Source: Comamonadaceae bacterium (GTDB lineage: Bacteria; Pseudomonadota; Gammaproteobacteria; Burkholderiales; Burkholderiaceae_C). From it: a DNA stretch of 53,491 bases. Below are positions 2,148 through 39,961 of this stretch, in pieces. Every line of letters starts with the position of its first letter. Position 1 is the stretch's first letter. A program made the position numbers and the translations under genes. Where the stretch lies: positions 1 to 53,491 of the forward strand of contig CANHXV010000001.1 of assembly GCA_947464665.1 (NCBI GenBank), written 5' to 3'. The notes below the pieces were generated by a model that saw only the letters and a program-made list of their open reading frames with translations, did not search any database and had not been told where the DNA came from.

Positions 2148-2148
2148 T

Positions 2149-21366: not shown

Positions 21367-22593
21367 ATGTCTGAAGACAACCTAATTGAGAAAATCACCG
21401 AAAACCGCCTGCCTCACTACGAGCCCTATGGCTGGCACCATTGGCCAGAGCACCCTTGGCTGGCGTATCAGTTTCGGCGCGGTTTAGGCGAAACCCAAGA
21501 GGGGGGTGGCTCGGTCAGTGAAGTATTCCAAGCAGCCAGTCGTATGATTCCAGGTGATCTGGAAAGTTGGCACAAGGAGTGGATGCACATTGGTGATCGC
21601 AATTGGAATCGTGGTTGCGAAGAAGAGCGTTTGGGTCACATCAAGACGGCCATGAATTGCTACTTACGGGCTGCAGACTACTACCGTCAGGCTGAGTTTT
21701 TCCTAAAGCCTGATGACCCGAGACGCTTGCCAACATTCGAAAAGATGGAGGCGTGCAGTAAAAAATTCATTTCGCATTTGAATCCTGCCGGTGAGGCTGT
21801 TGAGATTCCTTACGAAAACGGCGTCACTATTTGCGGCTACTTCGTGCGTGCGCCTTTCCCAGATAAGCGTCAACCCGTATTAATTTGCATGGGCGGTCTT
21901 GATTCAATCAAGGACGAAATGTGGTTCATGCAAGCCCATGGCGCTGTCCAGCGCGGCATCTCGGTATTGATGATTGACGGCCCTGGACAGGGCGGTACTT
22001 TGCGTCGCCACAATGTGGTCAACAGGGTTGACACCGAAGTGCCGATTGGTCGGTGCATTGACTGGCTCGAGAAACGTGATGACGTAGATCCCAAGCGCAT
22101 CGCTGTTGCAGGCTCCAGCCTCGGCGGTTATTACGCTGCACGTGCAGGTTGTTACGAGCCGCGCCTTGCAGCTTGCATTGCGCATGGGGCTATTTGGGCC
22201 ATTACCGACCTCTGGGGTAATGCATCGGAAGACCACGGCCTGGCTGAACACATCAAGTGGGTTTTTGGCAAGCCAACCATGAAAGCCTCCATGGAAAAGG
22301 CGAGGGAGTTTACGCTGGATGGGCATCTTGATCATATGAAATGCCCGTTCCTGGTCATGCACGGTGGGCACGATGTGCTGACCGTCTCGCAAGCCAAGAA
22401 AGTCTATGACTACGGCAAGTCCAAGGGGGTGAATGTGACCCTGCGCTTGTTGTCTGAAGAGGAAACAGGTGCGGAGCATTGCCAGCATGACAACCCGACC
22501 ATTGGTCAGGAAATCCTGGCCGATTGGCTGGCCGACTGTTTTGGCATCGATCAGAAGAAAATGTTGAGTACTTCCCACAACCCTATGATCTGA
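21367..22593 (+). CDS. Alpha/beta hydrolase, 2,6-dihydroxypseudooxynicotine hydrolase/FrsA-like
   Basis: LRAADYYR.AEF, GGLDS, DGPGQG, nucleophile elbow GSSLGG, HGGHD and EHCQ. ATG 21367 follows a GGAG RBS. Confidence 0.85.
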   Translation: MSEDNLIEKITENRLPHYEPYGWHHWPEHPWLAYQFRRGLGETQEGGGSVSEVFQAASRMIPGDLESWHKEWMHIGDRNWNRGCEEERLGHIKTAMNCYLRAADYYRQAEFFLKPDDPRRLPTFEKMEACSKKFISHLNPAGEAVEIPYENGVTICGYFVRAPFPDKRQPVLICMGGLDSIKDEMWFMQAHGAVQRGISVLMIDGPGQGGTLRRHNVVNRVDTEVPIGRCIDWLEKRDDVDPKRIAVAGSSLGGYYAARAGCYEPRLAACIAHGAIWAITDLWGNASEDHGLAEHIKWVFGKPTMKASMEKAREFTLDGHLDHMKCPFLVMHGGHDVLTVSQAKKVYDYGKSKGVNVTLRLLSEEETGAEHCQHDNPTIGQEILADWLADCFGIDQKKMLSTSHNPMI

Positions 22594-22600
22594 GGCCGTC

Positions 22601-23245
22601 ATGAACTTCGGTGTAGACAAAGTTAAAGCGGCTGTCATTGCGATCGATTTGCATCGGGGTCATATGGACCTTTCTGTGGCCACCATGCCTGTCAAGACTC
22701 AAGCCCAAGCCGATCGAGTGCTGGGTAATGCTGCCAAATTGTTTGCTTGGTGCCGCGAGCAGGATTGGCCGATCATTCACTTGGTAACGACTTACCGAGA
22801 TGTTCCTGAAATTCGGTCCAATCCGTTTTGGAGAACGCGTGCAGATGATCCTCATGCCACGCGAAAAAATGTTGAGCGCCACAATTTGCAGGGATCGCCA
22901 GGCTGCACGGTGATGTCGCAAGTGATCGACCCGAAAAAAGACTGGATCGTCAACACAAAAAAACGCTACGATTGCTTTGTGGGAACCGATTTAGATTTCA
23001 CTTTGAAAGCCCACGGCATCAACACACTTATCATTACAGGTGTCAATACCAACAGTTGTGTGCTCTCAACAGTCGCTGCGGCTTGTTCTAAGGATTATGC
23101 TGTGATCGTCCCCAGTGACTGTGTCGATACCATGGACGATCCTTCTTTGCACGATGCGGCATTGTTGTGTATTCGCACAGCACTTGGTTTTGTCATGACC
23201 AGTTCGGAAATGATGTCTGTCAATGAGTTGAAAAAATCTCCATGA
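22601..23245 (+). CDS. Isochorismatase-family cysteine hydrolase
   Basis: Asp-Lys-Cys triad in IDLH, KKRYDCF and GVNTNSCV. Confidence 0.92.
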   Translation: MNFGVDKVKAAVIAIDLHRGHMDLSVATMPVKTQAQADRVLGNAAKLFAWCREQDWPIIHLVTTYRDVPEIRSNPFWRTRADDPHATRKNVERHNLQGSPGCTVMSQVIDPKKDWIVNTKKRYDCFVGTDLDFTLKAHGINTLIITGVNTNSCVLSTVAAACSKDYAVIVPSDCVDTMDDPSLHDAALLCIRTALGFVMTSSEMMSVNELKKSP

Positions 23246-23931
23246 ACTTTCGTTCACAGGCCAAGAACAAAATTCAGGCGAATGAGCCTGTATTAGCCAT
23301 CAACACTTTTGCTGGTGGTTTTGATGTGGCCGATTTGGTTTCCAAACTTGGCATTGATATCTTGTTCATCGATTGCGAGCGTGCGGGGATTGGCATTGAC
23401 ATGGTTGGACCTATGGCGCGGGCTGCACAACGCCATGGCGCTGCGGCGGTTGTTCGCAGCAAGACTCGTTATGTAGAGGATTGGGTGAGCTATCTTGATC
23501 GGGGTATTGATGGCTTGGTCATTCCTCGAGTGGAGACTGCGCAAGAAGCACAATTGATTTTGGAGACTGTCAGCTACGCATGCGGCAGTAAGGCGAAGGA
23601 CATGATCATCATTCCCCAGATCGAATCCGAGGCGGGGCTTAAAAACATAGATCAAATTCTGGCTGTTAAAGGATTTGACCTGTTCCTCATTGGACCTTAT
23701 GACCTGTCACACAGCATGGGTTTTGGCGGTGACATCACAATCACAGAAGTTCAGCAAGCGCTAGACCACATCGCTTTGAAAATCAAGGAACATGGGGAGC
23801 GTTTTGGTCTGCCAGTCACCCTGGCAAACGCCAAGGCTTGGCAAAAAAAAGGTGCTATTTTTAACTTTCACAGTTTGGAAGCACTCATCAAGCCAAGTCT
23901 TGAGGCATTGAAAAAGGAAATAGCGTGCTGA
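23242..23931 (+). CDS. HpcH/HpaI aldolase-like protein (atypical)
   Basis: FIDCER, VVR, PRVET, PQIES and IGPYDLS. Has Arg at the DxEH His position and lacks the PP.G.RG loop. Confidence 0.82.
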   Translation: MNFRSQAKNKIQANEPVLAINTFAGGFDVADLVSKLGIDILFIDCERAGIGIDMVGPMARAAQRHGAAAVVRSKTRYVEDWVSYLDRGIDGLVIPRVETAQEAQLILETVSYACGSKAKDMIIIPQIESEAGLKNIDQILAVKGFDLFLIGPYDLSHSMGFGGDITITEVQQALDHIALKIKEHGERFGLPVTLANAKAWQKKGAIFNFHSLEALIKPSLEALKKEIAC

Positions 23932-24395
23932 ATGTCAAAGAACATAAACTGATCAAGGTGGCCTTGGAAGGTTATGCCCCCACAGCAAGCCTCACTGAGG
24001 TGCGAGTCCGCGGCCATTCCTTTGTGATTGATGAGCCACCCTACCGCCACGGTACTGATGTGGGGCCAACGCCTTTGGAAACTTTGCTAGGCGCCTTGAT
24101 TGGTTGCACCAACGTGATTGCGCGTCGCATAGCAATTGAGATGAAGATCGATTTGAAGATTGACAAAATTGATGTGCTGGGCCATCTGGATCACCGGGGC
24201 ATAGACAGAGTGGCGGATGTACCCGTTCCGTTTCCCACCATTGAATTGAAGGTAAAGGCCACCACATTCGGGACCGAGCAGGAAATGCGCCTATTGCGTG
24301 AAGACCTGAACAAGCGATGCCCTATGTCTGTGATCTTGAAACAGGCGGGCAGTCAAATCGTTGAGAGTTGGGAAATTAACTACGTCAAGAAATGA
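23925..24395 (+). CDS. OsmC/Ohr family protein
   Basis: IDEPP..HGTDVGPTPLETLLGALIGC and RCP, giving two conserved Cys. Confidence 0.88.
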   Translation: MLNVKEHKLIKVALEGYAPTASLTEVRVRGHSFVIDEPPYRHGTDVGPTPLETLLGALIGCTNVIARRIAIEMKIDLKIDKIDVLGHLDHRGIDRVADVPVPFPTIELKVKATTFGTEQEMRLLREDLNKRCPMSVILKQAGSQIVESWEINYVKK

Positions 24396-24407: not shown

Positions 24408-25292
24408 ATGACCATGATTCCTAGGGAGCGTGCGCCTTACAGTGCTATCGTCGATCGTCCAAAAATGAAATTACCCGACAACGGGAAGATCATTGTTTGG
24501 ACCATTGTTAACTTGGAGGTTTGGGACATTAGCAAACCCATGGCTCGCCAAGTCATTCCCGCCCCTACCGGAGCGGTTCTCTTGCCCGATGTGCCCAACT
24601 GGAGTTGGCACGAATACGGCATGCGCGTCGGATTCTGGCGCTTTCACGACCTTTACCAAAAGTTGGGCATAAAGCCAACGCTGTCCATCAATGCCCGCGT
24701 TTGCGAAGACTACCCCCGAGTTGCGCAAGCCTGCCTTGATGCCGGTTGGGAATTCATGGGCCACAGTTACCAACAAGGACCTATTCATCTTGAGCCTGAT
24801 CAGCCAGCAATGATCAAGCGGTCTCTGGACGTGATTGAAAAATTCACTGGTAAACGGCCAGTTGGGTGGCTTGGCCCCGGCCTGACCCAAACCAATGAAA
24901 CCCCGGACCATCTGGCTGCGGCGGGCATCAAATACATTGGCGACTGGGTTTACGACGAAGAGCCGACAGAGATCCAAACCGAAAATGGCCCGCTCATTAC
25001 CATTCCTTATACCGTTGAAAACAATGATATTCCGATGATGGCTGTTCAGCACCATGAGGCTTCTTACTGGACGCAAAAGTGCATCGATACTTTTGATCGC
25101 CTATACGAGGAAGGCTCAGATCGCCCTCGCGTGATGGCGATTGCCATCCACCCTTACATTTCCGGGCAGCCTTTCCGCATCAAATACCTCGAAGAGGTCT
25201 ATCAGCACATGGCCAAACACACGGGTGTCATGCATTGGAATGGTGAGCAAATTCTCGACTGGTATCAAACCGCCAGAAAGACAGCCAAGTGA
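24408..25292 (+). CDS. Polysaccharide deacetylase (CE4)/PuuE-like amidohydrolase 1
   Basis: VNLEVW, NWSWHEYGMRVGFWR, WEFMGHSY, GWLGPGL and IHPYISGQPFR. Confidence 0.9.
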   Translation: MTMIPRERAPYSAIVDRPKMKLPDNGKIIVWTIVNLEVWDISKPMARQVIPAPTGAVLLPDVPNWSWHEYGMRVGFWRFHDLYQKLGIKPTLSINARVCEDYPRVAQACLDAGWEFMGHSYQQGPIHLEPDQPAMIKRSLDVIEKFTGKRPVGWLGPGLTQTNETPDHLAAAGIKYIGDWVYDEEPTEIQTENGPLITIPYTVENNDIPMMAVQHHEASYWTQKCIDTFDRLYEEGSDRPRVMAIAIHPYISGQPFRIKYLEEVYQHMAKHTGVMHWNGEQILDWYQTARKTAK

Positions 25293-25987
25293 TGAACTTC
25301 GCAGTTCAAGTGCCAGAAGTCGTTGCAGTTCCGGTTGCAGGGACTGGCACATTTTTTCCAGTCAGAAGAATATATTGTGTGGGGCGTAATTATCTGGAGC
25401 ATATTCGCGAAATGAAGGAGGCGGATGAGCGTGATCCGCCGTTCTTCTTTCAGAAGCCGCGTGACGCACTTGTTCTCAACGGTCAGTTGGTTCCCTATCC
25501 ACCCCAAACGAATGACTTCCAGTTTGAAGTCGAGTTGGTCGTAGCCATTGGTAAGTCTGGTAGAGCTATCAGTAAAGAAAAGGCGCTGGATCATATTTTT
25601 GGGTACGCGGTGGGCTTTGATATGACACGACGTGATCGCCAACGTGAATCTGGAAAAAATGGTTTGCCATGGGAAATTGGCAAAAGTTTCGATGCTTGTG
25701 CACCTTGTGGAAACTTGCGCACGGTTGCCGATGTTGGGCACATCGACCATGGGCGAATTGCAGTGTCGGTCAATGGACAAGTTAAACAGGATTCACTGAT
25801 TGAAAAAATGATCTGGAATGTGCCCGAGATTGTGAGTAACCTGTCTCATTTGTATGATTTGGTGGAGGGCGATCTAATCTACTCTGGAACACCGGCAGGT
25901 GTTGCGCCCGTTCTAACCGGCGACATTCTCCGAGGTACGGTTGATGGATTAATCGATCTGGAAATCACTATTGGTACAAGGACCTGA
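25289..25987 (+). CDS. Fumarylacetoacetate hydrolase family (acylpyruvate/fumarylpyruvate hydrolase-like)
   Basis: RRIYCVGRNY..H, PFFFQKP, EVELVV, DMTRRD, WEIGKSFD and SGTPAGV. Confidence 0.93.
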   Translation: MMNFAVQVPEVVAVPVAGTGTFFPVRRIYCVGRNYLEHIREMKEADERDPPFFFQKPRDALVLNGQLVPYPPQTNDFQFEVELVVAIGKSGRAISKEKALDHIFGYAVGFDMTRRDRQRESGKNGLPWEIGKSFDACAPCGNLRTVADVGHIDHGRIAVSVNGQVKQDSLIEKMIWNVPEIVSNLSHLYDLVEGDLIYSGTPAGVAPVLTGDILRGTVDGLIDLEITIGTRT

Positions 25988-25991: not shown

Positions 25992-26858
25992 ATGAAGCCT
26001 CTGGAAAGAATCAAGTACTCTCCGATCAATGCTCGAAAGCCGTTAAAGCTGCCAGGTGGAGCACGCATGGTGGTCTGGAATATCGTGAACATTGAAGAGT
26101 GGGACATCGATCAAACGATGCCTAGAACGGTACTGACACCCCCGGCAGGTGGCTCTCCAATGCCGGATATTCCCAACTGGGCGTGGCATGAATACGGTAA
26201 CAGGGTTGGTTTCTGGCGGATGTTAAAGGTACTGGATGAACTCGACATCAAGGCAGTGCTTGCTATCAATGGTTCCGCCATCAAAGCCTATGAACCTATT
26301 TCTCAGGCCGCGCTAGACAGGGCATGGGAATTCATGGGCCATGGGTATACCCAGAGAAATATGCAGAAGGTTGAAAACGAGCAGGAAGACATTGCCAAAA
26401 CAACCGAGGCGATCAGGGCATTCACTGGAAAACGTCCGCGCGGTTGGTTGGGTCCTGGCTTGACTGAAACCTGGCATACGCCGGATTTGTTATCTGAGAA
26501 TGGATATGAGTACGTCTGTGATTGGGTACTCGATGACCAGCCTGTTGTCTTGAAAACGCGCCATCAACCTATTGTCAATGTGCCGTACACGCAAGAGTGC
26601 AACGACGTGGCGATGATGCTGATTCAGCACCATACTGCCTCTGAATACTACAGACGTGGCATCGATCAATTTGAGCAAATTTACGAAGACTCAGTCGATT
26701 CTGCCCGCGTGATGGCCTTGGTGGTTCATCCTTACATCATGGGTGCGCCGCACAGGCTCAAATACTACAAGCAATTGTTGACGGAAATTCGTCAGCGCAA
26801 AGATGTTTTGTTCTGGACGGGCGAGCAGATTCTTGACTGGTATGGGTCGCAGGTTTAG
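25992..26858 (+). CDS. Polysaccharide deacetylase (CE4)/PuuE-like amidohydrolase 2
   Basis: VNIEEW, NWAWHEYGNRVGFWR, WEFMGHGY, GWLGPGL and VHPYIMGAPHR. Paralog of 24408..25292. Confidence 0.9.
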   Translation: MKPLERIKYSPINARKPLKLPGGARMVVWNIVNIEEWDIDQTMPRTVLTPPAGGSPMPDIPNWAWHEYGNRVGFWRMLKVLDELDIKAVLAINGSAIKAYEPISQAALDRAWEFMGHGYTQRNMQKVENEQEDIAKTTEAIRAFTGKRPRGWLGPGLTETWHTPDLLSENGYEYVCDWVLDDQPVVLKTRHQPIVNVPYTQECNDVAMMLIQHHTASEYYRRGIDQFEQIYEDSVDSARVMALVVHPYIMGAPHRLKYYKQLLTEIRQRKDVLFWTGEQILDWYGSQV

Positions 26859-26974: not shown

Positions 26975-27832
26975 GTGTCAATGACGATATTTCAACTCCT
27001 CAATGGGGCAACCTTTGCAGCTTTGCTGTTCGTTGTCGCCAGTGGGTTCACACTGATTTTTGGACTCATGCGAATTGTGAATTTGGCGCATGGTGCCCTT
27101 TATCTTTTTGGCGGCTATTTAGGCTTGACCGTAGCCAACTTCACGGGCAATTTCTTTTTGGGGGCAATTGGTGCTGCAATCGGTATTGCACTGACAGGCT
27201 TCATCATTGACTTTGGTCTGCTGAGGTTTGTGCGCGGAGTTGAACTCAGACAGGTGCTACTGACACTGGGTGTAGCCTTTGTGCTCAACGATCTGTCTTT
27301 GGTTTTGTGGGGTGGTGATACCTTCAGCATTCAGGTGCCCGCCTTCCTTGATGGCCCTGCAGAATTTGGAAACATGACCTATCCCATTTACCGATTGTTT
27401 GTACTCTTAGTCGGCGTCGTGATTTTCATCTCACTCAGTCTCTTGATCACCAAAACTCGACTCGGTGCCTTGATCCGAGCAGGCGTGGACGATGCAGAAA
27501 CCGTCTCTGCCATGGGTGTGGACATTCGACGGGTGTTCATCTACACCTTCATGCTGGGTTCTGCCCTTGCCGGATTGGGCGGTGTGATGGGAGGTGCATT
27601 TTTGACGCTGTATCCTACGGCCGACTCCGAAATTCTGGTCTATAGCCTGGCGGTTGTGATCATTGGCGGACGTGGCAGCTTGATTGGCGCTGCGGTTGGA
27701 AGTTTGTTGGTGGGCATGCTGTCTACCTTCGGACAAGTCTGGTTTCCAGAATTGGCTTATTTCGTCATTTTTGGCCCCATGGCCATTCTTTTGGCATTCA
27801 GGCCCTTGGGTCTTTTTGGAAAGGTGGCCTAA
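26975..27832 (+). CDS. HAAT (LivH-like) ABC permease
   Basis: GFTLIFGLMRIVNLAHG, TRLGALIRA and IIGGRGSLIGA. Confidence 0.94.
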   Translation: MSMTIFQLLNGATFAALLFVVASGFTLIFGLMRIVNLAHGALYLFGGYLGLTVANFTGNFFLGAIGAAIGIALTGFIIDFGLLRFVRGVELRQVLLTLGVAFVLNDLSLVLWGGDTFSIQVPAFLDGPAEFGNMTYPIYRLFVLLVGVVIFISLSLLITKTRLGALIRAGVDDAETVSAMGVDIRRVFIYTFMLGSALAGLGGVMGGAFLTLYPTADSEILVYSLAVVIIGGRGSLIGAAVGSLLVGMLSTFGQVWFPELAYFVIFGPMAILLAFRPLGLFGKVA

Positions 27833-28765
27833 ATGTTGGTCAACAAAAAACAAACGGTCTATGTCATCCTGGCCTTGATTGTCTTGGCACTTATTCCCAC
27901 GCTGTTGCCCGGATATAAAACCAGCATTGCTACCGAAATACTCATTTTTTCCATACTGGCGATGTCGGTAGACATCATGGCGGGATTCACTGGAAGAACT
28001 TCCTTGTGCCACGGTGCCATCTTTGGTGTGGCCACTTACGTGGTCCTGCACTACGTCACGGTGGTTGGTGGCTCAGTCTGGTTGGGCGCTTTATTAGGCA
28101 TATTGGCTGCTATGCTAATTTCGATGATCTTTGCCGCGTTGGCGATCAGAACATCGGGCGTGTATTTTATTTTGCTGACCTTGGCGCTGGGCATGATTGT
28201 GTGGGGTGTGTGTCTCCGCTGGACTTCTGTGACTGGCGGTGAAAACGGCATTCGAGGCAGTGTTGCACCCGAGTGGTTGCTCAATAAAAAAAATCTTTAC
28301 TACTTTGTTGCAGCCTGCTTTGCCGTGGTCACGCTTTGCATGTGGAAGTTTGTCAATTCACCCTTTGGCCTGACCTTGAAGGGGATTCGAGACAGTGAGT
28401 CACGCATGCGAACATTGGGATACAACGTTCCGTTGCACTTGTTCATCGGCTTTGTCGTGTCCGGATTCTTTGCGGGCGTTGCGGGAGCTTTGTACGCCTT
28501 CTTCAACAGCTTTGTCAGTCCTTCCACCGTGGCTTTGGCTCAGTCCGTAGAAGGCTTGTTAATGGCCATTGTGGGAGGCGTGGGTACTTTATTCGGCGCC
28601 ATCATTGGGGCCATTCTGGTCATTTCTCTGGAAAATTTTGTCAGTTTGTACACCGAGCGCTGGTTGATGGTACTGGGATTTATGTTCATCTTCACGATGA
28701 TCTTTGCCCCAACCGGATTCCTTGGCGCTGCCCGTATTTTCATTAAATCATTTGAGAAGAAGTGA
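27833..28765 (+). CDS. HAAT (LivM-like) ABC permease
   Basis: GVYFILLTLA, TGGENG, SPFGLTLKGIRDSE and GGVGTLFGA. Confidence 0.94.
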   Translation: MLVNKKQTVYVILALIVLALIPTLLPGYKTSIATEILIFSILAMSVDIMAGFTGRTSLCHGAIFGVATYVVLHYVTVVGGSVWLGALLGILAAMLISMIFAALAIRTSGVYFILLTLALGMIVWGVCLRWTSVTGGENGIRGSVAPEWLLNKKNLYYFVAACFAVVTLCMWKFVNSPFGLTLKGIRDSESRMRTLGYNVPLHLFIGFVVSGFFAGVAGALYAFFNSFVSPSTVALAQSVEGLLMAIVGGVGTLFGAIIGAILVISLENFVSLYTERWLMVLGFMFIFTMIFAPTGFLGAARIFIKSFEKK

Positions 28766-28815
28766 GTTAGTCGTCGTTGTTTTCCCTTTGTTTATTTACT
28801 AATCAGGAGTGCATC

Positions 28816-30072
28816 ATGGAACGTAGAAATTTTGTTAAATCCGTCGGTTTGACTGTGGCTGCAGGCGCTGCACCATGGCTTAATACTGCGCAAGCCCAAA
28901 CAGGGCCTATTCGCATTGGTTTGTTGTCGCCTCTTACCGGGGTTTTGGCTGCTGGCGGCAAAGAACTGGTAGAGGGCTTTGAGTTGTATTGGAAGCAAAA
29001 TGGTTTGACCTTGGCAGGACGTCAGGTCGAGATCGTGATTGAAGACGATGGCTCCAACCCAGACATGGCCTTGCAAAAATCACGTCGACTGGTTGAGCAG
29101 CGAAATGTGCACTTCCTGATGGGTAGCGTGCTGGCCAACACGGGTCTGGCCATCTCGGAATATGCCCGCTCTAGCGGAACACCTTATTTCATTCCAGTTG
29201 TAGCTGCAGACGATTTGACGCAGCGTAAAGCGGTACCCAACATTGTTCGTGTGGCTGGGTACTCTGCAAGTCAGATGCCACGCCCCTTGGCAGAGTATGC
29301 CTACAACGTCAAGAAAGTTCGCAAGATCGTGACGATTTCGCAAGACTACACATTCGGACATGAGCAATGCGGTGGCTTTTGCCAGACATTCTCCGAATTG
29401 GGAGGTCAGGTCATTCAGCAGTTCTGGCATCCCATCAACACGGCAGACTTCAGCCCCTACTTGGCGCAAATCAGAAATGCCGGCGCCGATGCTGTCTTTG
29501 TGATGGAAACGGGTGCCGATGCCAACCGCTTTATCAAGCAGTATCAGAACTTTGGCCTGCAGGGTAAGTTACCCATGTTCGGCGCCATGAATTTGACGGA
29601 TCAGTCGGTCATTCGCACACTTGGTGCCGAGGCGGGGGGCATCATTTCTTCAGCCCACTTTGCTGAAGGCTCTGACATTGCTGCGACCAAGAAATTCGTT
29701 GCCGAATACAACGAGGCTTTTGCTAAATTGCCCTCTATTTATGGCTTTTCTCACTATTCGGGCGCAATGTGGATTGCCGAAGCGATCAAGAAAATCAACG
29801 GCAGGGTAGAGGACAAGACGGCATTCCTCAATGCAGTTAAGTCGACCGAATTGACCAATTCCCCATTGGGCCGTCCTGTCAAATTAGACAAGTATGGCAA
29901 TCCAGTCTACGACGTATTTATTCGTGAGACAAAAGTGCGGCCTGATGGCAAGTACTGGAACGTTCCAATCGAAGTTTATCCAGGCGTTTCGCAGTTTGGA
30001 AAGTACGACCCTGAGGTTTACATGAAGCAACCCTCTTACAGTCGTGATTTCCAAGGGATCAAGAAGTCCTGA
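28816..30072 (+). CDS. HAAT ABC substrate-binding protein with Tat signal
   Basis: MERRNFVK twin-arginine signal after an AGGAG RBS, IRIGLLSPLTG, EDDGSNPD and DYTFGHE. Confidence 0.93.
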   Translation: MERRNFVKSVGLTVAAGAAPWLNTAQAQTGPIRIGLLSPLTGVLAAGGKELVEGFELYWKQNGLTLAGRQVEIVIEDDGSNPDMALQKSRRLVEQRNVHFLMGSVLANTGLAISEYARSSGTPYFIPVVAADDLTQRKAVPNIVRVAGYSASQMPRPLAEYAYNVKKVRKIVTISQDYTFGHEQCGGFCQTFSELGGQVIQQFWHPINTADFSPYLAQIRNAGADAVFVMETGADANRFIKQYQNFGLQGKLPMFGAMNLTDQSVIRTLGAEAGGIISSAHFAEGSDIAATKKFVAEYNEAFAKLPSIYGFSHYSGAMWIAEAIKKINGRVEDKTAFLNAVKSTELTNSPLGRPVKLDKYGNPVYDVFIRETKVRPDGKYWNVPIEVYPGVSQFGKYDPEVYMKQPSYSRDFQGIKKS

Positions 30073-30103
30073 TCGTTTGATCTAAAACCATTGAAGCAAG
30101 CCA

Positions 30104-30139: not shown

Positions 30140-30156
30140 CATTCAGGGATATCTTT

Positions 30157-30912: not shown

Positions 30913-31609
30913 AATTAATGATCTGCACAGTTACTACGGTGACGCCCACATTTTGCGCGGCGTCAACATGAAGGTGTCGAAAGGCAAGGTTGTCGCTTTG
31001 TTAGGGCGTAACGGCATGGGGAAGACCACGCTGATCCGTTCAATCATGGGCTTGAATCCCCCACGGATTAGCAAAGGCAGTGTCAAATACGATGGGCACG
31101 AACTGGTGGGTCTAAGCCCGCATGTGATCGCATCTAAGCGCATAGGATTTGTTCCGCAAGGAAGGCGCCTTTTTGCATCGCTGACCGTCACCGAACACTT
31201 GACGGTTTTTGCCTCTCAAAATCCTGACAGCAAATGGACCATGAAGAGGATGTACGAGCTGTTTCCTCGTCTTGAAGAGCGCAAGAACAACTTGGGCAAC
31301 CAGCTCTCCGGTGGAGAGCGACAAATGTTGGCGGTAGCCAGAGCCCTGATGACTGATCCTGAAATGTTGTTGATGGATGAGCCCACCGAAGGCTTGGCGC
31401 CTGTCATGGTTCAACACTTGGAAGAAATCGTCGCCGAGTTGGGTAAAGCCGGTTTGGGGATCTTATTGGTTGAACAGAATCTCTACAGCGCCTTGTCAGT
31501 GGCCAATGAGGTCTACCTGATGGAGACGGGCGAAATTGTTCATCACTGCCTTCCCAATGAGTTGATGAATGACCGTGACACCATGCAGCGGTTCCTCGGT
31601 GTTCGGTAA
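30905..31609 (+). CDS. HAAT ABC ATP-binding protein (LivF-like)
   Basis: GRNGMGKTT, VPQGRRLF, LSGGERQM and MDEPTEGLAP. Confidence 0.95.
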   Translation: MLEINDLHSYYGDAHILRGVNMKVSKGKVVALLGRNGMGKTTLIRSIMGLNPPRISKGSVKYDGHELVGLSPHVIASKRIGFVPQGRRLFASLTVTEHLTVFASQNPDSKWTMKRMYELFPRLEERKNNLGNQLSGGERQMLAVARALMTDPEMLLMDEPTEGLAPVMVQHLEEIVAELGKAGLGILLVEQNLYSALSVANEVYLMETGEIVHHCLPNELMNDRDTMQRFLGVR

Positions 31610-31627: not shown

Positions 31628-33046
31628 ATGACAGATCAATTCGCGAATTTGGGTGTGTGTGATGCGGCCAGCGCAATTGCACGAGGCGAGGTCAGCTCGG
31701 AAAGATTGACGAAAGTTTCTTTAGACCGTTTGCAGACGCTGGGTTCAAAATTGAATTGCGTAGCTTCTCTGCAGGTAGACGCAGCATTGGATGCTGCACG
31801 CAGGGCCGATGTTCTCAGATCCAAAGGGCAAGCTTTAGGTCTTTTGCATGGCGTACCTATGGCGCACAAGGAGTTGTTTTACAGGCAAGGTCGAAAAACC
31901 AATGATGGTTCTATCATCACGAAAGACTTCATCCCGCAAGAGACCTCAACAGCTTTGACACGCTTGGACAAAGCCGGAGCCATTGATCTTGGCCTTTTGC
32001 ACATGGCAGAATTTGCCATGAGTCCTACAGGTTTTAATTTGCATTATGGCCACGTGAGAAATCCCTGGAATACGGATGCTTGCCCCGGAGGATCTTCGAG
32101 TGGTTCTGGTGCAGCAGTAGCAGCCAGATTAACTTACGCCTCTTTGGGCACCGATACAGGAGGATCGATTCGTCATCCGTCGGCAATGTGCGGCGTCACT
32201 GGCCTAAAACCAACCTGGTCTAGGGTAAGCTCGTTTGGGGTCATGCCCTTGTCTAAATCACTAGACTGCGTTGGCCCATTGGCCAGAAGCGCACGCGATT
32301 GTGCTCGTTTATTGACGGTTGTGGCAGGACATGATCCCTTGGACAATTCAAGTAGTCTAGAGGCTGTTCCAGATTACGAGAGCATGTTGGAAGGCGACTT
32401 ACGTGGCATGAAAATAGCCGTACCTGGAGGCTATTACCGCGAGCACCTTGATGCTGGCGTAGCAAGTTGTATCGTAGAGGCTGAACGTGTTTTCACAAGC
32501 TTGGGAGCTGCCATCATTCGGACTGAACCTCCGAACATGACAGACATCAACCGTTTGATGTCGATTGTGCTGACGGTGGAGGCTGCATCTCTCCACAAGC
32601 ACTGGATTGAGACACGGCGTCAAGATTACGCGGAGCAAGTTCTTGCGCGTTTCATGCCTGGCTTTGATTTCACAGGTATTGATTACTACGAAGCCATCAG
32701 CGCGAGGAGGGAATGTGCGCTCAAGTGGGTGGGCATGACGATGGGTGATGCCGATTGTGCTTTGCTTCCCACGATACCGGTCCAGGTTCCCAGCATCGCT
32801 GAAACCACTCAGGGTGACTGGAGTGTCATCTCCAAAAAAATTGCCACCATCACGCATTGCAACCGTGCCATCAATTATTTGGGACTGCCTGCACTGAGTG
32901 TTCCTGCAGGATTTGTGAATGCGATGCCCGTGGCGTTTCAGTTGGTTGGCCGGGCGTTTGACGAAGGCAAGTTGTTAAAGATGGGTCATGCATTTCAGAC
33001 CATGACCCAGTGGCATCAGGCTGTGCCGGCATCGTACATGTCTTGA
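31628..33046 (+). CDS. Amidase-signature family amidase
   Basis: LHGVPMAHK, PGGSSSGSG and GTDTGGSIR (Ser-cisSer-Lys triad). Confidence 0.94.
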   Translation: MTDQFANLGVCDAASAIARGEVSSERLTKVSLDRLQTLGSKLNCVASLQVDAALDAARRADVLRSKGQALGLLHGVPMAHKELFYRQGRKTNDGSIITKDFIPQETSTALTRLDKAGAIDLGLLHMAEFAMSPTGFNLHYGHVRNPWNTDACPGGSSSGSGAAVAARLTYASLGTDTGGSIRHPSAMCGVTGLKPTWSRVSSFGVMPLSKSLDCVGPLARSARDCARLLTVVAGHDPLDNSSSLEAVPDYESMLEGDLRGMKIAVPGGYYREHLDAGVASCIVEAERVFTSLGAAIIRTEPPNMTDINRLMSIVLTVEAASLHKHWIETRRQDYAEQVLARFMPGFDFTGIDYYEAISARRECALKWVGMTMGDADCALLPTIPVQVPSIAETTQGDWSVISKKIATITHCNRAINYLGLPALSVPAGFVNAMPVAFQLVGRAFDEGKLLKMGHAFQTMTQWHQAVPASYMS

Positions 33047-33059: not shown

Positions 33060-33968
33060 ATGGATACTTTGTCCCGCATGACAACAGTTGGCGTAATTGG
33101 ATTAGGTGTGATGGGTCTTGCCATGGCTCAGAACTTGAGTCGGTCAGGTTTTACGGTGTATGGCTACGACATCGACGCCAAACGTAAAAAATTATTCAAG
33201 CAGGCCAACGGATCCGTTTGTCGTTCTGTTCAAGAGCTGGCAGGATACGTTGATGTGCTGATCACGTCTTTGCCATCGGCACAAGCGCTGATGACGGTGT
33301 GTGGTTTGCTAGCAGAATCGCAAGTTCGAAAACTGACAGTGATCGAAACAAGCACCTTGCAGATCAAGGAAAAAATAGCTGCAAAGCGCCTGCTGATTCC
33401 AGCCCAAATGGTGATGCTCGACTGTCCTTTATCGGGGACCGGATCACAGGCGAAAACGAAAGACTTGGTGGTGTACGGAAGTGGTCAAATCGCCGCCTTC
33501 AAAAAGGTCAGGCTTGTCTTGCAAGGCTTTTCCCGAAATCAGTTTTATCTAGGCGCCTTTGGCAATGGCATGAAGCTGAAAATGATTGCTAATTATTTGG
33601 TGGCTGTTCACAACGCAGCAACTGCTGAAGCCTTGGTATTGGCGGAGAGGGCCAACTTAGATCTGGAACTTGTACTCGCCGCCATTGGCGACAGCGCGGG
33701 GCAATCCAAGATGTGGCAAATCAGAGGCCCTCGCATGGTGACGGCTGATTATTCGCCCATGATGTCGATGCACCTATGGCAAAAAGACATGGGCATCATC
33801 TCTCAATTTGTTGCGGATTCAGGCGCACCGTCTCCGGTATTTGATCAAGCTCGTGCCCTTTACGACTTGGCATATCAGGCTGGTTATGGTGACAGTGATA
33901 GTTCTGTCATTCACCGTATTCTGAAATCTATGCCCCATGCGTCATTCAAAGCCACCTCGGAGGATTGA
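33060..33968 (+). CDS. Beta-hydroxyacid dehydrogenase (3-hydroxyisobutyrate dehydrogenase family)
   Basis: IGLGVMG, IETST, DCPLSG, KMIAN and KDM. Confidence 0.92.
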   Translation: MDTLSRMTTVGVIGLGVMGLAMAQNLSRSGFTVYGYDIDAKRKKLFKQANGSVCRSVQELAGYVDVLITSLPSAQALMTVCGLLAESQVRKLTVIETSTLQIKEKIAAKRLLIPAQMVMLDCPLSGTGSQAKTKDLVVYGSGQIAAFKKVRLVLQGFSRNQFYLGAFGNGMKLKMIANYLVAVHNAATAEALVLAERANLDLELVLAAIGDSAGQSKMWQIRGPRMVTADYSPMMSMHLWQKDMGIISQFVADSGAPSPVFDQARALYDLAYQAGYGDSDSSVIHRILKSMPHASFKATSED

Positions 33969-36787: not shown

Positions 36788-37963
36788 ATGTTTTATACCT
36801 GCTCTTCTTCTTGTCAAAACACCTCTCACCGCCATTCACCCAGCGATGGGGCAGCGGGGATGTTTTCCTTACCCAGACAGACAGCTGCTTCAGCAGCGGC
36901 ATCCAAGCGGTCGCCTTCTTCTAAACCCTTGCCCAGCAAGGTGCTCAAACGAATCTCCCCCGCGAAGGTGGTAGATGTGCATTGCCATTACCTCAGTCCA
37001 GTTGTGGGTGCTAAATATGCGCATTTACACCCTGCCAAGCACGATGCCACCGCTGTTTACGCAACGGAATTGTCGCGACAAGTGAACATGAAGCAGATTC
37101 AGGAACGCGGGGCTAAGTTCAACCAAGTAGAGGTCAGGATCAAGGACATGGACAAGATGGGGATCGATCTCCAAGTGATCTCGCCAGCACCCATTCAATA
37201 CTTTTACTTTACCGAGCCTCAACTCGGTGCCCGCATATCTCGTGACATCAATGAGAGTATTGCGATGGTTGTTGAGCAACGACCTGATCGTTTTGTAGGG
37301 ATGGGCACGATTCCCCTGCAAGATGTTGAATTGGCTATCCAAGAGTTGGAGTATGCCGTTAACGTTCTGGGACTGCGCGGCGTTGAAATCTGCACCAATG
37401 TGAATGGCAAAAATTTGACTGATCCCGAATTGAAGCTGGAAAAGTTTTTTGCAAAAGCCGAGAGCATGGGGATCGTTCTTTTTTTACATCCCATGGGGTT
37501 TTCCGAAGGTCAGCGTTTTGTTGAGCATTACTTCAACAACGTCATGGGCAATCCTCTTGAAACAAGTTTGGCTTTGGGGCATCTTATTTTTGATGGCGTA
37601 CTGGCGCGGTATCCTAAGTTGAAAATTTTGGCCTCACACGGCGGTGGCTACATTGCGAGCTATTGGGCGCGAATGGACCATGCCTGGAAGGCCCGTGCAG
37701 ATGCTCGCACGGTCATCCAAAAAAAGCCCTCCAGTTACTTGGAAAAAATTTACTTTGACAGCATCACCCACGATTCACAAATTTTGGGCAATCTCGTTGA
37801 CCGTTATGGTGCCCAGCGCATTCTTCTAGGAACCGATTACCCTTTTGACATGGGTGAAGACCATCCAATCAAGTTGATCGAAAGCGTCCGCCACTTGAGT
37901 GAAAAAGATCGAACTTTCATCAAGGGCGGCAATGCCATGAAGCTCTTCAAGATCAAGGCTTAA
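36788..37963 (+). CDS. Amidohydrolase_2 family (ACMSD-like decarboxylase/hydrolase)
   Basis: DVHCH, MDKMGIDLQVISP, FLHPMG, SHGGG and LGTDYPFDM. Confidence 0.9.
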   Translation: MFYTCSSSCQNTSHRHSPSDGAAGMFSLPRQTAASAAASKRSPSSKPLPSKVLKRISPAKVVDVHCHYLSPVVGAKYAHLHPAKHDATAVYATELSRQVNMKQIQERGAKFNQVEVRIKDMDKMGIDLQVISPAPIQYFYFTEPQLGARISRDINESIAMVVEQRPDRFVGMGTIPLQDVELAIQELEYAVNVLGLRGVEICTNVNGKNLTDPELKLEKFFAKAESMGIVLFLHPMGFSEGQRFVEHYFNNVMGNPLETSLALGHLIFDGVLARYPKLKILASHGGGYIASYWARMDHAWKARADARTVIQKKPSSYLEKIYFDSITHDSQILGNLVDRYGAQRILLGTDYPFDMGEDHPIKLIESVRHLSEKDRTFIKGGNAMKLFKIKA

Positions 37964-38001
37964 GTCAAAGAGTCGAAAACGCACTGAACTAGGGAGAGAA
38001 T

Positions 38002-39180
38002 GTGATAGATGACAAATGGAACGCTTTTGTTCCTGGTGAAAAATTTTTAATCCAAGAGCAAGCAAATGGGTCATTGGCTGGCTTGACCATGTCAGTCAAG
38101 GATTTATTTGACATCGCAGGACACCCTACAGGCGCTGGCAACCCTGATTGGCGCTCATCTCACGCAGTGCCGCTACAACATGCTGATCTGGTTCAGACGC
38201 TTTTCAATGCAGGCGCCGGCTTCGTCGGTAAAACCATCACAGAAGAGTTGGCTTACAGTTTGGTGGGCGAAAATGCGCACTACGGAACGCCAATGAACCC
38301 GCACAACCCGGATTGCATACCCGGTGGATCAAGCTCTGGTGCAGCCGCTGCCGCAGGTGCAGGACTTTGTGATTTTTCGATCGGAACCGACACAGCTGGC
38401 TCGATCCGCTTGCCTGCAAGCTTTTGTGGTCTTTGGGGATTCAGACCTTCTCATGGCGTCTTACCCATCAAGGGCCTGGTTCCGCTTTCGCCCAGTTTTG
38501 ATACGCCAGGCTGGATGTCCAAATCATTTGATCCTTTTTTTCGCGTGGGCTCAGCCCTTTTGCCGCCTGATCAAAATGCCAGTGAGTTAGCTCATTTGAA
38601 GCTGGCTTTCCCTGAGGATATCTGGCGGCTTGTTCATCCTGGTTTTGATGCAGTATTGAAACCAATCACTGATCGAATCGCAAGCTTGTTCAATGGTGTG
38701 GTCAATGACAAGCTTTCCCAAGCTCAATTGATTGAATGGCAAGAAGCTTTCCGCTTTGTACAAGGCCATGAAGCCTGGTCAGTGCATGGCGCCTGGATTC
38801 GCAGCCAAAATCCTCATTTTGGTCCGGGTATCAAGGAGCGGTTTGAGTGGGCATCCACAATCGATGATGAGCAGGCAAAAGCTGCTCGAATCGATACCCT
38901 TAAAAATGCCAATCGGGTGAGCGCCTATTTAGAGGGGGCGGTCATTTGCATGCCAACAGTCTCCTACTTGGCCCCGCAAAAAGGCCATGCCAGCAGCGCT
39001 GAAGATCGTACCAATGCAATGAGTTTGTTGTGCATCGCTTCCTTGGCAGGTTCGCCGCAGATCACCATGCCACTGGCCGTTCTTGACGGCAAAGCTGTGG
39101 GTTTATCTTTGCTGAGTCGCCGCTTTAGTGATCGGCAACTCTTGTCACTGGCTCAAAAGATTCAGAGTTTGTTGAGCTGA
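38002..39180 (+). CDS. Amidase-signature family amidase (short type)
   Basis: VKDLFD, GENAHYGTP, PGGSSSG and GTDTAGSIR. GTG start with a GGAG RBS. Confidence 0.93.
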   Translation: MIDDKWNAFVPGEKFLIQEQANGSLAGLTMSVKDLFDIAGHPTGAGNPDWRSSHAVPLQHADLVQTLFNAGAGFVGKTITEELAYSLVGENAHYGTPMNPHNPDCIPGGSSSGAAAAAGAGLCDFSIGTDTAGSIRLPASFCGLWGFRPSHGVLPIKGLVPLSPSFDTPGWMSKSFDPFFRVGSALLPPDQNASELAHLKLAFPEDIWRLVHPGFDAVLKPITDRIASLFNGVVNDKLSQAQLIEWQEAFRFVQGHEAWSVHGAWIRSQNPHFGPGIKERFEWASTIDDEQAKAARIDTLKNANRVSAYLEGAVICMPTVSYLAPQKGHASSAEDRTNAMSLLCIASLAGSPQITMPLAVLDGKAVGLSLLSRRFSDRQLLSLAQKIQSLLS

Positions 39181-39214
39181 TCTTTGCTGATTACTTGCTA
39201 GAAGCAACGGCAAA

Positions 39215-39961
39215 TTAGAAAGTGGGTGGGGTACTTACCCAGAGCACACGCGTGGTCTGTTTTCCAGGATTGCGATAGGAATGAGGCTCTTCGGAACGGT
39301 AGACAAATGAATCGCCCGAGTGAAGTAAATACTGCACGCCGCTGACAGTCAATTCAAACACACCGCTCAGCACATAGCCCACTTCTTCTCCTTCATGGGT
39401 CAGGACACCATCACTGCCACCACCGGGCTCAAGTATGTGCAAATTGCCTTCCAGTAAATGGCCCAAATTAGCAGGGATGAGCCGTTCCAGTCGAGAGCCA
39501 TTGGCATCAATGCGAAATGTGGAGCGATCCTTGGCGCGCGTGACCACGCCATGATCGGCTCGTGATTCGCTGAACAAGGCGGTGATGGTGATATCCAAGC
39601 TGTGAACAATCCGGTGCAGTAAGGTCAGAGATAACTGGGCTTTGCCGTTTTCCACTTTGGAGAGCATGCTCTCAGAACAAAGCGTACGCTCCGCCAGGTC
39701 CTTAAGTGTCAAACCTTTGATGTGCCGTAAATTTCGGATACGTCGACCTATGTCATCACCGTAAAGAGCCTGCTCTTTCATGGCCGTGTTGGGGGAGAGT
39801 TTTAAACCAGATGGACGCGAACGTGGTTTGGTGACTGACTTGGAAGTTGCAACATGGGCACCAGGCGTCTTTTGCTTTGCTTTTTTCTCAACTGGCGCAC
39901 CGCTTGAGTTTTGATGTTCGTTGGCTTTTTTGAGCATTTTTTGGGGTGTGGCTGATGGCAT
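39215..39961 (-). CDS. XRE-HTH plus cupin transcriptional regulator (PuuR-like)
   Basis: IGRRIRNLR...LTLKDLA...SESMLSKVENG, and cupin motifs HEGEEVGYVLSG and GDSF...PHSYRNPG. Lys-rich N-terminal extension. Confidence 0.92.
   Translation of the reverse strand: MPSATPQKMLKKANEHQNSSGAPVEKKAKQKTPGAHVATSKSVTKPRSRPSGLKLSPNTAMKEQALYGDDIGRRIRNLRHIKGLTLKDLAERTLCSESMLSKVENGKAQLSLTLLHRIVHSLDITITALFSESRADHGVVTRAKDRSTFRIDANGSRLERLIPANLGHLLEGNLHILEPGGGSDGVLTHEGEEVGYVLSGVFELTVSGVQYLLHSGDSFVYRSEEPHSYRNPGKQTTRVLWVSTPPTF

What the first reader, a model, noticed from the sequence alone, without database searches (positions are those of the whole stretch)
21367..39961. 18-kb co-oriented cluster for degradation of an unidentified N-heterocycle
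Seen in sequence: 18 same-strand genes plus a convergent XRE-cupin regulator. They encode a NicAB-like Mo hydroxylase, an ACMSD-like amidohydrolase, a DHPON-hydrolase-like alpha/beta hydrolase, two PuuE-like CE4 enzymes, a cysteine hydrolase, two amidases, an FAH-family hydrolase, an aldolase, a beta-hydroxyacid dehydrogenase, OsmC and a full HAAT ABC transporter. No ring-cleaving dioxygenase or flavin monooxygenase is present. Established knowledge: aerobic nicotinate and picolinate routes need such oxygenases (NicC/NicX type). Inference: after Mo-dependent hydroxylation the ring is opened hydrolytically. At least five C-N hydrolases suggest an N-rich substrate (pyrimidine, purine, pterin/lumazine or triazine-like) used as a nitrogen source. 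I cannot match this gene set to a described pathway.
Basis: partly seen in the sequence, partly recalled or inferred. Interest (0 to 1): 0.8.

Follow-up and report, generated by a model that had tools for sequence, protein, structure and literature searches.

The report
Oxygenase-free ring-breaking hydrolase operon
A block of 18 same-strand genes and a regulator, shared with many freshwater and soil bacteria, likely imports an as yet unidentified nitrogen-containing ring compound and is predicted to break it open with water rather than oxygen, a route I could not match to a published pathway.

Summary
In detail: 18 co-oriented genes (21367-39180) and a convergent XRE-cupin gene, all families confirmed, none of a known oxygenase family. 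The block is one regulatory unit by sequence: a perfect palindrome, TTCAAGT-N-ACTTGAA, lies just behind the promoter, once per genome, and precedes the first gene in 12 of 14 XRE-bearing loci and 0 of 66 others. It is co-conserved across Alpha- and Betaproteobacteria but modular. The constant part is one PuuE-like CE4 hydrolase plus the ABC importer; the DHPON-hydrolase-like C-C hydrolase, cysteine hydrolase, second CE4 + FAH and amidase are frequent; the Mo hydroxylase (14 of 50 genomes) and ACMSD-like enzyme (16 of 50) are accessory. So Mo hydroxylation is not the obligatory first step, and nothing supports an N-rich substrate or nitrogen control. Best reading (0.45): trimming enzymes funnel substituted pyridine-type acids to a dioxo (cyclic imide or beta-dicarbonyl) ring that CE4 opens hydrolytically, as fungal HxnM does. 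The substrate is not identified; pyrimidine/ureide substrates and an unlinked or cryptic oxygenase remain live rivals. Ten literature searches found no described match. New variant of a known kind; interest 0.55.

The parts
21279..21306 (+). sigma-70-type promoter-like site (TAGATA-16-TATAGT)
   Evidence: consensus scan, no more sites than shuffles overall; conserved position in 7 aligned upstream regions
21309..21323 (.). perfect palindrome TTCAAGT-N-ACTTGAA, likely operator of the XRE-cupin regulator
   Evidence: only exact copy in G000; exact upstream of the first gene in 12 of 14 XRE loci, 0 of 24 GntR loci, 0 of 42 others; one exact copy per genome in 5 of 5 genomes
21367..22593 (+). ABH: FrsA/DHPON-hydrolase-like serine hydrolase, likely retro-Claisen C-C hydrolase
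   Evidence: 2jbw E 3e-27; Ser251/Asp336/His371 invariant in 38 sequences; Foldseek top hits SMU_737, DHPON hydrolase, Wdyg1p/Ayg1p, AntI, FrsA
22601..23245 (+). CysH: cysteine hydrolase (isochorismatase family), likely amidase
   Evidence: PF00857; Asp16/Lys/Cys153 present; BiuH and RutB models far below cut-off
23242..23931 (+). HpcH/HpaI-family aldolase, divergent; accessory
   Evidence: PF03328; TIGR02311 81.9 vs 368.8; 16 of 80 loci
23925..24395 (+). OsmC-like protein with both cysteines; accessory
   Evidence: PF02566; motifs; 11 of 80 loci
24408..25292 (+). CE4a: PuuE-like CE4 hydrolase; the most constant enzyme, likely ring-opening or deacylating
   Evidence: PF01522, TIGR03212 below cut-off; Glu37/His119/His248 align with PuuE; 51 of 54 core loci; 41 of 101 family genomes at 62% identity or more
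25289..25987 (+). FAH-family hydrolase of the fumarylpyruvate hydrolase/acylpyruvase type
   Evidence: 4maq E 7e-66, 6j5y, FAHD1; 31 of 54 core loci, never without CE4b
25992..26858 (+). CE4b: second PuuE-like CE4 hydrolase, separate clade, travels with FAH
   Evidence: 46% identical to CE4a; separate groups with SH-aLRT 95 and 96 in a quick tree of 52 rows; 38 of 54 core loci
26975..31609 (+). HAAT-type ABC importer: livH-, livM-like permeases, substrate-binding protein 28816-30072, two ATPases
   Evidence: nearest structures 4zpj, 4ey3, 4evq; 54-57 of 80 loci
31628..33046 (+). Amid1: amidase-signature enzyme
   Evidence: PF01425; AtzE models below cut-off; Ser-Ser-Lys motifs present
33060..33968 (+). 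beta-hydroxyacid dehydrogenase; accessory
   Evidence: PF03446/PF14833
34051..36685 (+). two-subunit Mo hydroxylase (2Fe-2S subunit 34051-34539, Mo subunit 34586-36685); accessory
   Evidence: linked in 14 of 50 genomes
36788..37963 (+). AH2: ACMSD-like amidohydrolase-2 enzyme, likely decarboxylase; accessory
   Evidence: ACMSD E 3e-54; Foldseek ACMSD first; His65/His67/His234/His284/Asp350/Arg295 invariant in 13 sequences; linked in 16 of 50 genomes
38002..39180 (+). Amid2: PRK08310-type amidase; accessory
   Evidence: NF006169 445.8 bits over cut-off 391
39215..39961 (-). XRE-cupin regulator, likely repressor of the operon
   Evidence: on the same contig as ABH in 11 of 50 genomes, and tracks with the palindrome

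Best explanation
The block is a single-promoter, modular catabolic operon that likely imports an oxygenated six-membered N-heterocyclic acid, most likely of the pyridine type, and is predicted to open its ring by hydrolysis without an oxygenase. Shown by sequence: gene content, catalytic residues, one operator tied to the XRE gene, co-conservation and which genes are constant. Inferred: (1) three optional trimming enzymes convert substituted analogues to a common dioxo ring (cyclic imide such as the 2,6-dihydroxypyridine/glutaconimide type, or a 2,4-dioxo beta-dicarbonyl): the Mo pair hydroxylates next to ring nitrogen, AH2 removes a carboxyl group, ABH cuts a C-C bond next to a carbonyl (an acyl side chain, or the ring itself); (2) CE4a hydrolyses the ring imide or the N-acyl group; (3) CysH, Amid1/Amid2 and CE4b release ammonia or a small acyl group; (4) FAH, the aldolase and the dehydrogenase cut the 2,4-dioxo or hydroxy-oxo acid to pyruvate and small acids; (5) the substrate or an intermediate releases the XRE protein from its operator. 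The compound itself is not identified.
For: Operator-regulator coupling. Core composition in 54 loci: CE4a 51, CysH 48, CE4b 38, FAH 31. In 101 genomes of one alphaproteobacterial family the binding protein is in 16, ABH in 12, both in 11; 3 of 20 fetched CE4a regions show the full CE4a-FAH-CE4b-ABC-amidase operon in genomes with no ABH match (L152, L154, L155), so ABH is optional like the Mo pair and AH2. All characterised structural neighbours of ABH are C-C hydrolases on acylated hydroxy(hetero)arenes or FrsA (DHPON hydrolase function from PMC3891541, passages). CE4 imide opening of a pyridine-derived 2,6-dione is proposed for HxnM (PMC9304392, section 12); amidohydrolase-2 decarboxylation of a dihydroxypicolinate is shown for PicC (bioRxiv 10.1101/457895, passages); an FAH is proposed to cut 3-formylpyruvate in 4-hydroxypyridine breakdown (PMC7356986, passages). 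Where ABH + AH2 + a Mo enzyme occur without CE4a (L015, L018, L019) a PRK07236 flavin monooxygenase is near instead, a distant relative (32%) of an annotated 2,6-dihydroxypyridine hydroxylase. Among same-strand unlabelled neighbours of the 54 core loci (29 representatives, 27 scanned) one oxygenase was appended to the operon (a Rieske protein, L053). G065 (100% complete) has the cluster but no Hnr-like match, no PRK07236 over cut-off and no HsaA-like match; G028 has the core but no match to the LLM, PRK07236, HsaA-like or AH2 queries.
Against: No substrate evidence: every enzyme is 25-37% identical at best to a characterised one, except FAH. Aromatic dihydroxypyridines resist hydrolysis; in the described fungal and bacterial hydrolytic routes the ring is reduced first (PMC9304392) and no ring reductase is evident here. 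A luciferase-like monooxygenase is present elsewhere in 32 of 50 ABH genomes and next to the cluster in G029, G031, G047, G048; PRK07236 is over cut-off in 4 of 5 isolate genomes tested. CE4a occurs in 41 of 101 family genomes, mostly without the importer or ABH and in varied contexts, two of 20 opposite a flavin monooxygenase. Only four oxygenase-type or reductase queries were searched genome-wide, so other unlinked oxygenases are untested. G000 is 66% complete.
Confidence: 0.45

Rival explanations
1. Same hydrolytic logic, but the substrate is a pyrimidine- or ureide-type ring with two or more nitrogens (barbiturate, orotate, parabanate or another purine/pyrimidine oxidation product).
For: CE4a/b are nearest to PuuE allantoinase among solved structures; CysH is related to BiuH/RutB and Amid1 to AtzE, all below cut-off; CE4b + FAH also sit with a deaminase-type amidohydrolase in a six-gene plasmid operon; one locus appends a hydantoin-5-propionate amidohydrolase (L073).
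Against: PuuE Trp130 is Gln in both CE4s; no urease-, allophanate hydrolase- or deaminase-type gene in the cluster; the C-N hydrolases are not co-conserved; no sigma-54-type site at the promoter.
Confidence: 0.2
2. The cluster is a lower pathway: the ring is cleaved by an oxygenase encoded elsewhere (luciferase-like, PRK07236-type or HsaA-like), by other organisms, or by a cryptic oxygenase inside it (AH2), and the CE4s remove N-formyl or N-acyl groups from the open product.
For: A sister cluster with luciferase-like monooxygenase, flavin reductase, AH2, Mo enzyme and a related CE4 is common and sometimes fused to this one; CE4a is sister to CE4s from such clusters (SH-aLRT 97); KpiC shows an amidohydrolase-family dioxygenase exists (PMC7356986). 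Recalled, not read: PyrC and TgnD are CE4-type deformylases after flavin-dependent ring cleavage.
Against: The operator is single-copy, so no unlinked oxygenase shares the regulon; 18 of 50 ABH genomes have no LLM match; AH2 keeps the ACMSD metal and arginine residues, is amidohydrolase-2 whereas KpiC is amidohydrolase-1, and is absent from most copies.
Confidence: 0.2
3. The block is a mosaic of two or three short pathways for different, related compounds (CE4a + importer; CE4b + FAH; Mo pair + AH2 + dehydrogenase) gathered behind one promoter, not one linear route.
For: Each module occurs without the others; gene order is shuffled in L007; the Mo pair is lost or broken in 3 of 7 closest relatives (G003, G004, G005).
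Against: One importer, one operator; ABH and the importer co-occur in 11 of 12 ABH genomes against 5 of 89 others, also when unlinked (kin not independent).
Confidence: 0.1
4. The substrate is not an aromatic N-heterocycle but an acylated amide or a tetramic-acid-like natural product that ABH de-acylates.
For: ABH neighbours act on polyketides; 47-50% relatives sit near an acyl-homoserine lactonase and hydantoinase genes on a Variovorax plasmid.
Against: Repeated linkage to Mo hydroxylases of three types and to an ACMSD-like enzyme.
Confidence: 0.05

Closest known systems
Nicotine pyridine pathway of Arthrobacter (DHPON hydrolase, 2,6-dihydroxypyridine hydroxylase; PMC3891541, passages)
   Same: Mo hydroxylation plus an FrsA-like serine hydrolase with the same triad and fold (TM 0.70-0.73)
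   Different: About 25% identity; no 2,6-dihydroxypyridine hydroxylase-like gene in the cluster or in G000; two CE4s, a cysteine hydrolase and FAH instead
Aspergillus nidulans hxn nicotinate pathway (HxnS, HxnM, HxnN; PMC9304392, passages and section 12)
   Same: Mo hydroxylase, CE4 cyclic imide hydrolase for ring opening, amide hydrolysis afterwards
   Different: hxn uses flavin monooxygenases and ring reduction first; HxnM is HpPgdA-like whereas these CE4s are nearer PuuE (E 8e-23 vs 4e-13)
Arthrobacter kpi 4-hydroxypyridine pathway (PMC7356986, passages and section 3.4; supplement not seen)
   Same: deformylase step followed by an FAH-family hydrolase on an acylpyruvate
   Different: needs KpiA monooxygenase and KpiC dioxygenase; KpiB is a 295-aa alpha/beta hydrolase, not a CE4 or FrsA-like protein
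Alcaligenes pic picolinate pathway (PicC; bioRxiv 10.1101/457895, passages)
   Same: amidohydrolase-2 decarboxylase acting on a hydroxylated pyridine acid
   Different: PicC resembles gamma-resorcylate decarboxylase (45%), AH2 resembles ACMSD; pic uses oxygenases (search listing)
PuuE allantoinase / ureide pathways
   Same: CE4 fold with Glu, His, His catalytic residues
   Different: TIGR03212 108 and 106 bits vs 424.6; Trp130 replaced; no other purine catabolic gene
Lumichrome (PMC12746152, part 1 of 6 read) and homarine (PMC13236597, passages) pathways
   Same: hydrolytic opening of a pyrimidine ring and a xanthine-oxidase step (lumichrome); pyridine substrate (homarine)
   Different: lumichrome needs P450, Rieske and catechol dioxygenases; homarine uses a flavin oxygenase-like pair; neither gene set is here

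Membership tests
DHPON hydrolase-like C-C hydrolases | G-x-S-x-G nucleophile with Asp and His triad | tested here: met
   Ser251, Asp336, His371 align with 2jbw and are invariant
DHPON hydrolase-like C-C hydrolases | N-terminal helical domain plus alpha/beta hydrolase fold | tested here: met
   model pLDDT 82; Foldseek 2jbw E 3e-18, TMq 0.73
DHPON hydrolase (orthologue) | cleaves 3-acyl-2,6-dihydroxypyridine | not testable with these tools
   25% identity; needs assay
Nicotine pyridine pathway | 2,6-dihydroxypyridine hydroxylase downstream | tested here: not met
   none in cluster or G000; PRK07236 over cut-off in 0 of 5 close relatives
PuuE allantoinase | TIGR03212 over curated cut-off | tested here: not met
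   108.5 and 106.5 bits vs 424.6
PuuE allantoinase | Glu-His-Trp triad (numbering recalled) | tested here: not met
   Glu and His kept, Trp is Gln in both CE4s
ACMSD | HxH, His177, His228, Asp294 metal site and Arg239 | tested here: met
   equivalents invariant; residues named in bioRxiv 10.1101/457895 and PDB titles
ACMSD | substrate pocket and kynurenine-pathway context | tested here: not met
   YWLPW of human ACMSD is YFNNV here; no such genes in the cluster
BiuH / RutB cysteine hydrolases | NCBIfam cut-off | tested here: not met
   59 vs 370 and 58 vs 378 bits
AtzE amidohydrolase (Amid1) | NCBIfam cut-off | tested here: not met
   276 vs 461 and 426 bits
PRK08310 amidase (Amid2) | NCBIfam cut-off | tested here: met
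   445.8 vs 391 bits
Aerobic nic/pic maleamate pathways | flavin or Rieske monooxygenase and 2,5-dihydroxypyridine dioxygenase | tested here: not met
   no such family among 19 proteins; a genome-wide NicX search was not achieved
Nicotinate dehydrogenase NicAB | orthology to NicB and activity on nicotinate | tested here: inconclusive
   31-36% identity to long cytochrome-fused Mo subunits beside pncB; no model over cut-off
Reductive nicotinate pathway (Hnr, enamidase) | 6-hydroxynicotinate reductase | tested here: not met
   Hnr-like query (label recalled, no HMM hit) absent from cluster and G000, found in 2 of 5 close relatives
Operon (one transcript) | co-transcription | tested here: inconclusive
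   RNA contigs bridge several junctions but are unstranded and may hold DNA

The most novel reading that the evidence does not exclude
A widespread bacterial route that dismantles aromatic dihydroxypyridine-type rings with hydrolases only: interchangeable trimming enzymes (Mo hydroxylase, decarboxylase, serine C-C hydrolase) converge on one dioxo ring that a new PuuE-like CE4 subfamily opens, with no oxygenase and no ring reductase. It would supply genes for an orphan step such as citrazinate or 4,6-dihydroxypicolinate breakdown (orphan status recalled).
Probability: 0.3. Interest if true: 0.75.

Novelty: new variant of a known kind. Interest (0 to 1): 0.55.

Why it matters
The first gene has 3,054 relatives at E 1e-30 or better, one 90% cluster from Bradyrhizobium-type soil bacteria has 1,772 members, and near-identical sequence is present in 20 mostly river and freshwater metatranscriptome runs. 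A conserved, dedicatedly regulated uptake-and-hydrolysis system points to a common dissolved organic compound whose turnover is unassigned. If ring opening is oxygenase-free it adds a new way to break heteroaromatic rings and assigns functions to several uncharacterised subfamilies (two CE4 clades, an FrsA-like hydrolase, an ACMSD-like enzyme). The single-copy operator, two alternative regulators and one binding protein make the substrate directly screenable.

Tried and rejected
Literature: ten searches found no paper describing this gene set; the library omits most subscription journals, so this is not proof of absence. The Arthrobacter pyridine, Acinetobacter trigonelline, DHPON hydrolase primary and aromatic-acid binding-protein papers could not be read; statements on them are recalled. 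PMC4016543 held none of the terms sought. Lumichrome and homarine pathways rejected on gene content. Nicotinate link from Bradyrhizobium adjacency (L096-L098) set aside: unrelated genes intervene and it is seen in 3 related genomes only. The idea that the plasmid-operon amidohydrolase is KpiC-like was dropped: it is deaminase-type, KpiC is nearest enamidase. Sigma-54 scan: 14 sites in the window vs 9 expected, none at the promoter. Terminator scan uninformative. Composition: 50.2% GC vs 51.6% genome, no island signal. ESM Atlas gave only generic family names for ABH and CE4a. Three look-ups of earlier findings returned nothing. RNA gaps at 33-37 kb in X2 and X4 are no evidence. The CE4 tree is the quick tree only, 52 of 122 distinct sequences, with long branches. 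No complex prediction was run: a CE4a-CE4b pair would pass by likeness to PuuE.

Full report
Observation. The window holds 18 plus-strand genes from 21367 to 39180 and a convergent XRE-cupin gene at 39215-39961; intergenic gaps are -8 to 116 nt. Catalytic motifs are intact in ABH, CysH, both CE4s, both amidases, OsmC, the dehydrogenase and the Fe-S and Mo subunits. The closest records are Limnohabitans genomes (ABH 92-97% identical). The own assembly is 66% complete; cluster GC is 50.2% against 51.6%; ABH was found in 3 of 36 same-genus genomes, so the cluster is patchy.

One regulated unit. Seven aligned upstream regions share a promoter-like site followed by the palindrome TTCAAGT-N-ACTTGAA (window 21309-21323). 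It is the only exact copy in G000 and occurs exactly once in each of 5 other genomes. Among 80 loci it lies upstream of ABH exactly in 12 of 14 whose cluster carries the XRE gene (1 more with two mismatches, 1 without), in 0 of 24 with a divergent GntR and in 0 of 42 others; 16 of the 24 GntR loci have a TG(T/G)ATACA-type box instead. The XRE loci fall into few clades, so these are not independent. This ties the promoter at one end to the regulator 18 kb away and implies that no unlinked gene shares the regulon. Near-identical sequence is held by 20 metatranscriptome runs from 19 studies. In four runs laid, 30, 22, 28 and 26 of 30 bins over 20400-40300 had cover, against 17, 17, 13 and 13 of 30 over 1500-21400; one contig spans 28772-31992 (binding protein to Amid1). 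The runs were chosen for holding the first 10 kb, contigs are unstranded, and X1 also covers intergenic DNA, so this fits expression but does not show one transcript.

Conserved but modular. Of 364 genome stretches encoding an ABH relative the best 80 were kept. Within 10 kb of ABH: CE4a 57, CysH 57, ABC genes 54-57, CE4b 43, FAH 34, Amid1 20, AH2 18, aldolase 16, Fe-S 16, OsmC 11, dehydrogenase 10, XRE 8, Mo subunit 4, Amid2 2 of 80 (distal genes undercounted, some hits distant). In the 54 loci with both ABH and the permease: CE4a 51, CysH 48, CE4b 38, FAH 31, FAH never without CE4b. Whole-genome searches of 50 of these genomes put the Mo subunit within about 15 kb in 14 and AH2 within 20 kb in 16 (hand counts); G004 lacks the Mo pair in an otherwise complete cluster, G003 has it in three pieces and G005 with one stop. 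In an even draw of 101 genomes of one alphaproteobacterial family, ABH was in 12, the binding protein in 16 (11 shared) and CE4a at 62% identity or more in 41. Twenty CE4a regions were fetched: five show the CE4a-FAH-CE4b-ABC-amidase operon without an adjacent ABH, three of them in genomes with no ABH match; the other fifteen show CE4a alone or with CE4b in varied contexts. CE4b + FAH also form part of a six-gene operon on Streptomyces and Arthrobacter plasmids, with a variant in Variovorax. So CE4a plus the importer is the constant part; ABH, AH2 and the Mo pair are optional.

What the enzymes resemble. ABH has the DHPON hydrolase triad and fold; its characterised neighbours are DHPON hydrolase, Wdyg1p/Ayg1p, AntI and FrsA. 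DHPON hydrolase cuts the side chain from 2,6-dihydroxypseudooxynicotine (PMC3891541, passages). AH2 is nearest ACMSD by sequence and fold and keeps the metal site, with a different pocket; PicC shows this family decarboxylates a dihydroxypicolinate (bioRxiv 10.1101/457895, passages). FAH is of the fumarylpyruvate hydrolase/acylpyruvase type. The CE4s are PuuE-like but far below the PuuE cut-off, lack its tryptophan and form two separate groups; the fungal CE4 HxnM is proposed to open 3-hydroxypiperidine-2,6-dione (PMC9304392, section 12). The binding protein is nearest 4zpj, 4ey3 and 4evq; that the last two bind aromatic acids is recalled.

Mechanism. I read the block as a funnel: optional trimming by hydroxylation, decarboxylation or C-C hydrolysis to a dioxo ring, CE4 ring opening, amide hydrolysis, then FAH/aldolase/dehydrogenase cleavage. 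Two context clues favour a pyridine ring: where ABH, AH2 and a Mo enzyme occur without CE4a (L015, L018, L019), a PRK07236 monooxygenase is nearby, a 32% relative of an annotated 2,6-dihydroxypyridine hydroxylase; and asparaginase-type amide hydrolases are appended in two loci. All steps are inferred; no substrate is shown.

Against it. A luciferase-like monooxygenase of a sister cluster is present in 32 of 50 ABH genomes and adjacent in four; PRK07236 is over cut-off in 4 of 5 isolate genomes; one core locus appends an NdmA/SxtT-like Rieske oxygenase; KpiC shows that a hydrolase label can hide a dioxygenase (PMC7356986, section 3.4). Known hydrolytic routes act on reduced rings (PMC9304392) and no ring reductase is evident. 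On the other side, G065 (100% complete) lacks Hnr-like, PRK07236 and HsaA-like matches, G005 has no LLM match, and G028 lacks all of LLM, PRK07236, HsaA-like and AH2.

Novelty. Ten searches found no description of this gene set; public names of ABH relatives are generic. Lumichrome, homarine, kpi, pic, hxn and nicotine pathways share single steps but not the set. The kpi supplement could not be seen and might bear on how close KpiC or KpiD are to these proteins. Verdict: a real, regulated, widespread and apparently undescribed catabolic operon, a new variant of N-heterocycle catabolic clusters, substrate open; interest 0.55, 0.75 if oxygenase-free opening of an aromatic ring is shown.

Noticed in passing
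window 36788-36860; L007, L015, L048, L067, L071, L104, L122, L125: AH2 of the closer subgroup starts with a conserved Cys/His motif (MF..C...C....H.H) on a predicted disordered tail (9 of 13 aligned; pLDDT under 50), a possible metal-binding extension.
   Followed up: partly
L100-L106, L128-L142: A widespread sister cluster: luciferase-like monooxygenase, flavin reductase, HsaA-like oxygenase, TetR, AH2, Mo enzyme, two beta-hydroxyacid dehydrogenases, Gfo/Idh/MocA, CocE/NonD, a third CE4 type and a paralogous HAAT importer; substrate unknown.
   Followed up: partly
L084 7416-12909, L086 7073-12918, L085 14271-19422: Compact operon of regulator, TauE, PRK08204-like deaminase-type amidohydrolase, MFS, FAH and CE4b on Arthrobacter, Streptomyces and Variovorax plasmids; a simpler system for finding the CE4b + FAH substrate.
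   Followed up: partly
L096-L098, L121: In three Bradyrhizobium-type genomes the core lies 11-23 kb from a cluster with a cytochrome-fused Mo subunit, pncB and Hnr-/enamidase-like genes (labels recalled).
   Followed up: partly
L053 7971-8990; L070 10666-12171; L073 19274-20641; L048 18730-19746: Single loci append a NdmA/SxtT-like Rieske oxygenase, tricarballylate dehydrogenase TcuA, hydantoin-5-propionate amidohydrolase ErtD or an asparaginase after the importer.
   Followed up: partly
L150, L158, L159, L162, L164: A lone CE4a sits beside genes with FGE-sulfatase and histidine methyltransferase domains (ergothioneine-synthesis-like, label recalled), a distant FAH and, in four, a cupin protein.
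   Followed up: no
L099, L145; G130, G176, G205: Tandem pairs of ABH paralogues (61-70% identity) occur in several genomes; in L099 a one-mismatch operator and an XRE gene lie beside them.
   Followed up: no
G000 contigs C7 and C87: The own genome has six further CE4-type matches (34-38% for the best), two on C7 next to a cysteine hydrolase paralogue.
   Followed up: no
window 17966-21069 and 40199-44368: Flanks are unrelated: ZrgA, ABC, FtsX and DUF3299 genes upstream; a mandelate racemase-family gene and TRAP-like genes downstream.
   Followed up: no
L081 8258-16173: Two ABH relatives (32% and 47-50%) beside hydantoinase A/B, a phosphotransferase and an aminotransferase, 10 kb from an acyl-homoserine lactonase gene on a Variovorax plasmid.
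   Followed up: no
L007 2202-18340: Same gene set reshuffled: Mo pair divergent, AH2, Amid2 and XRE upstream of ABH, with a second near-palindrome after the operator.
   Followed up: no
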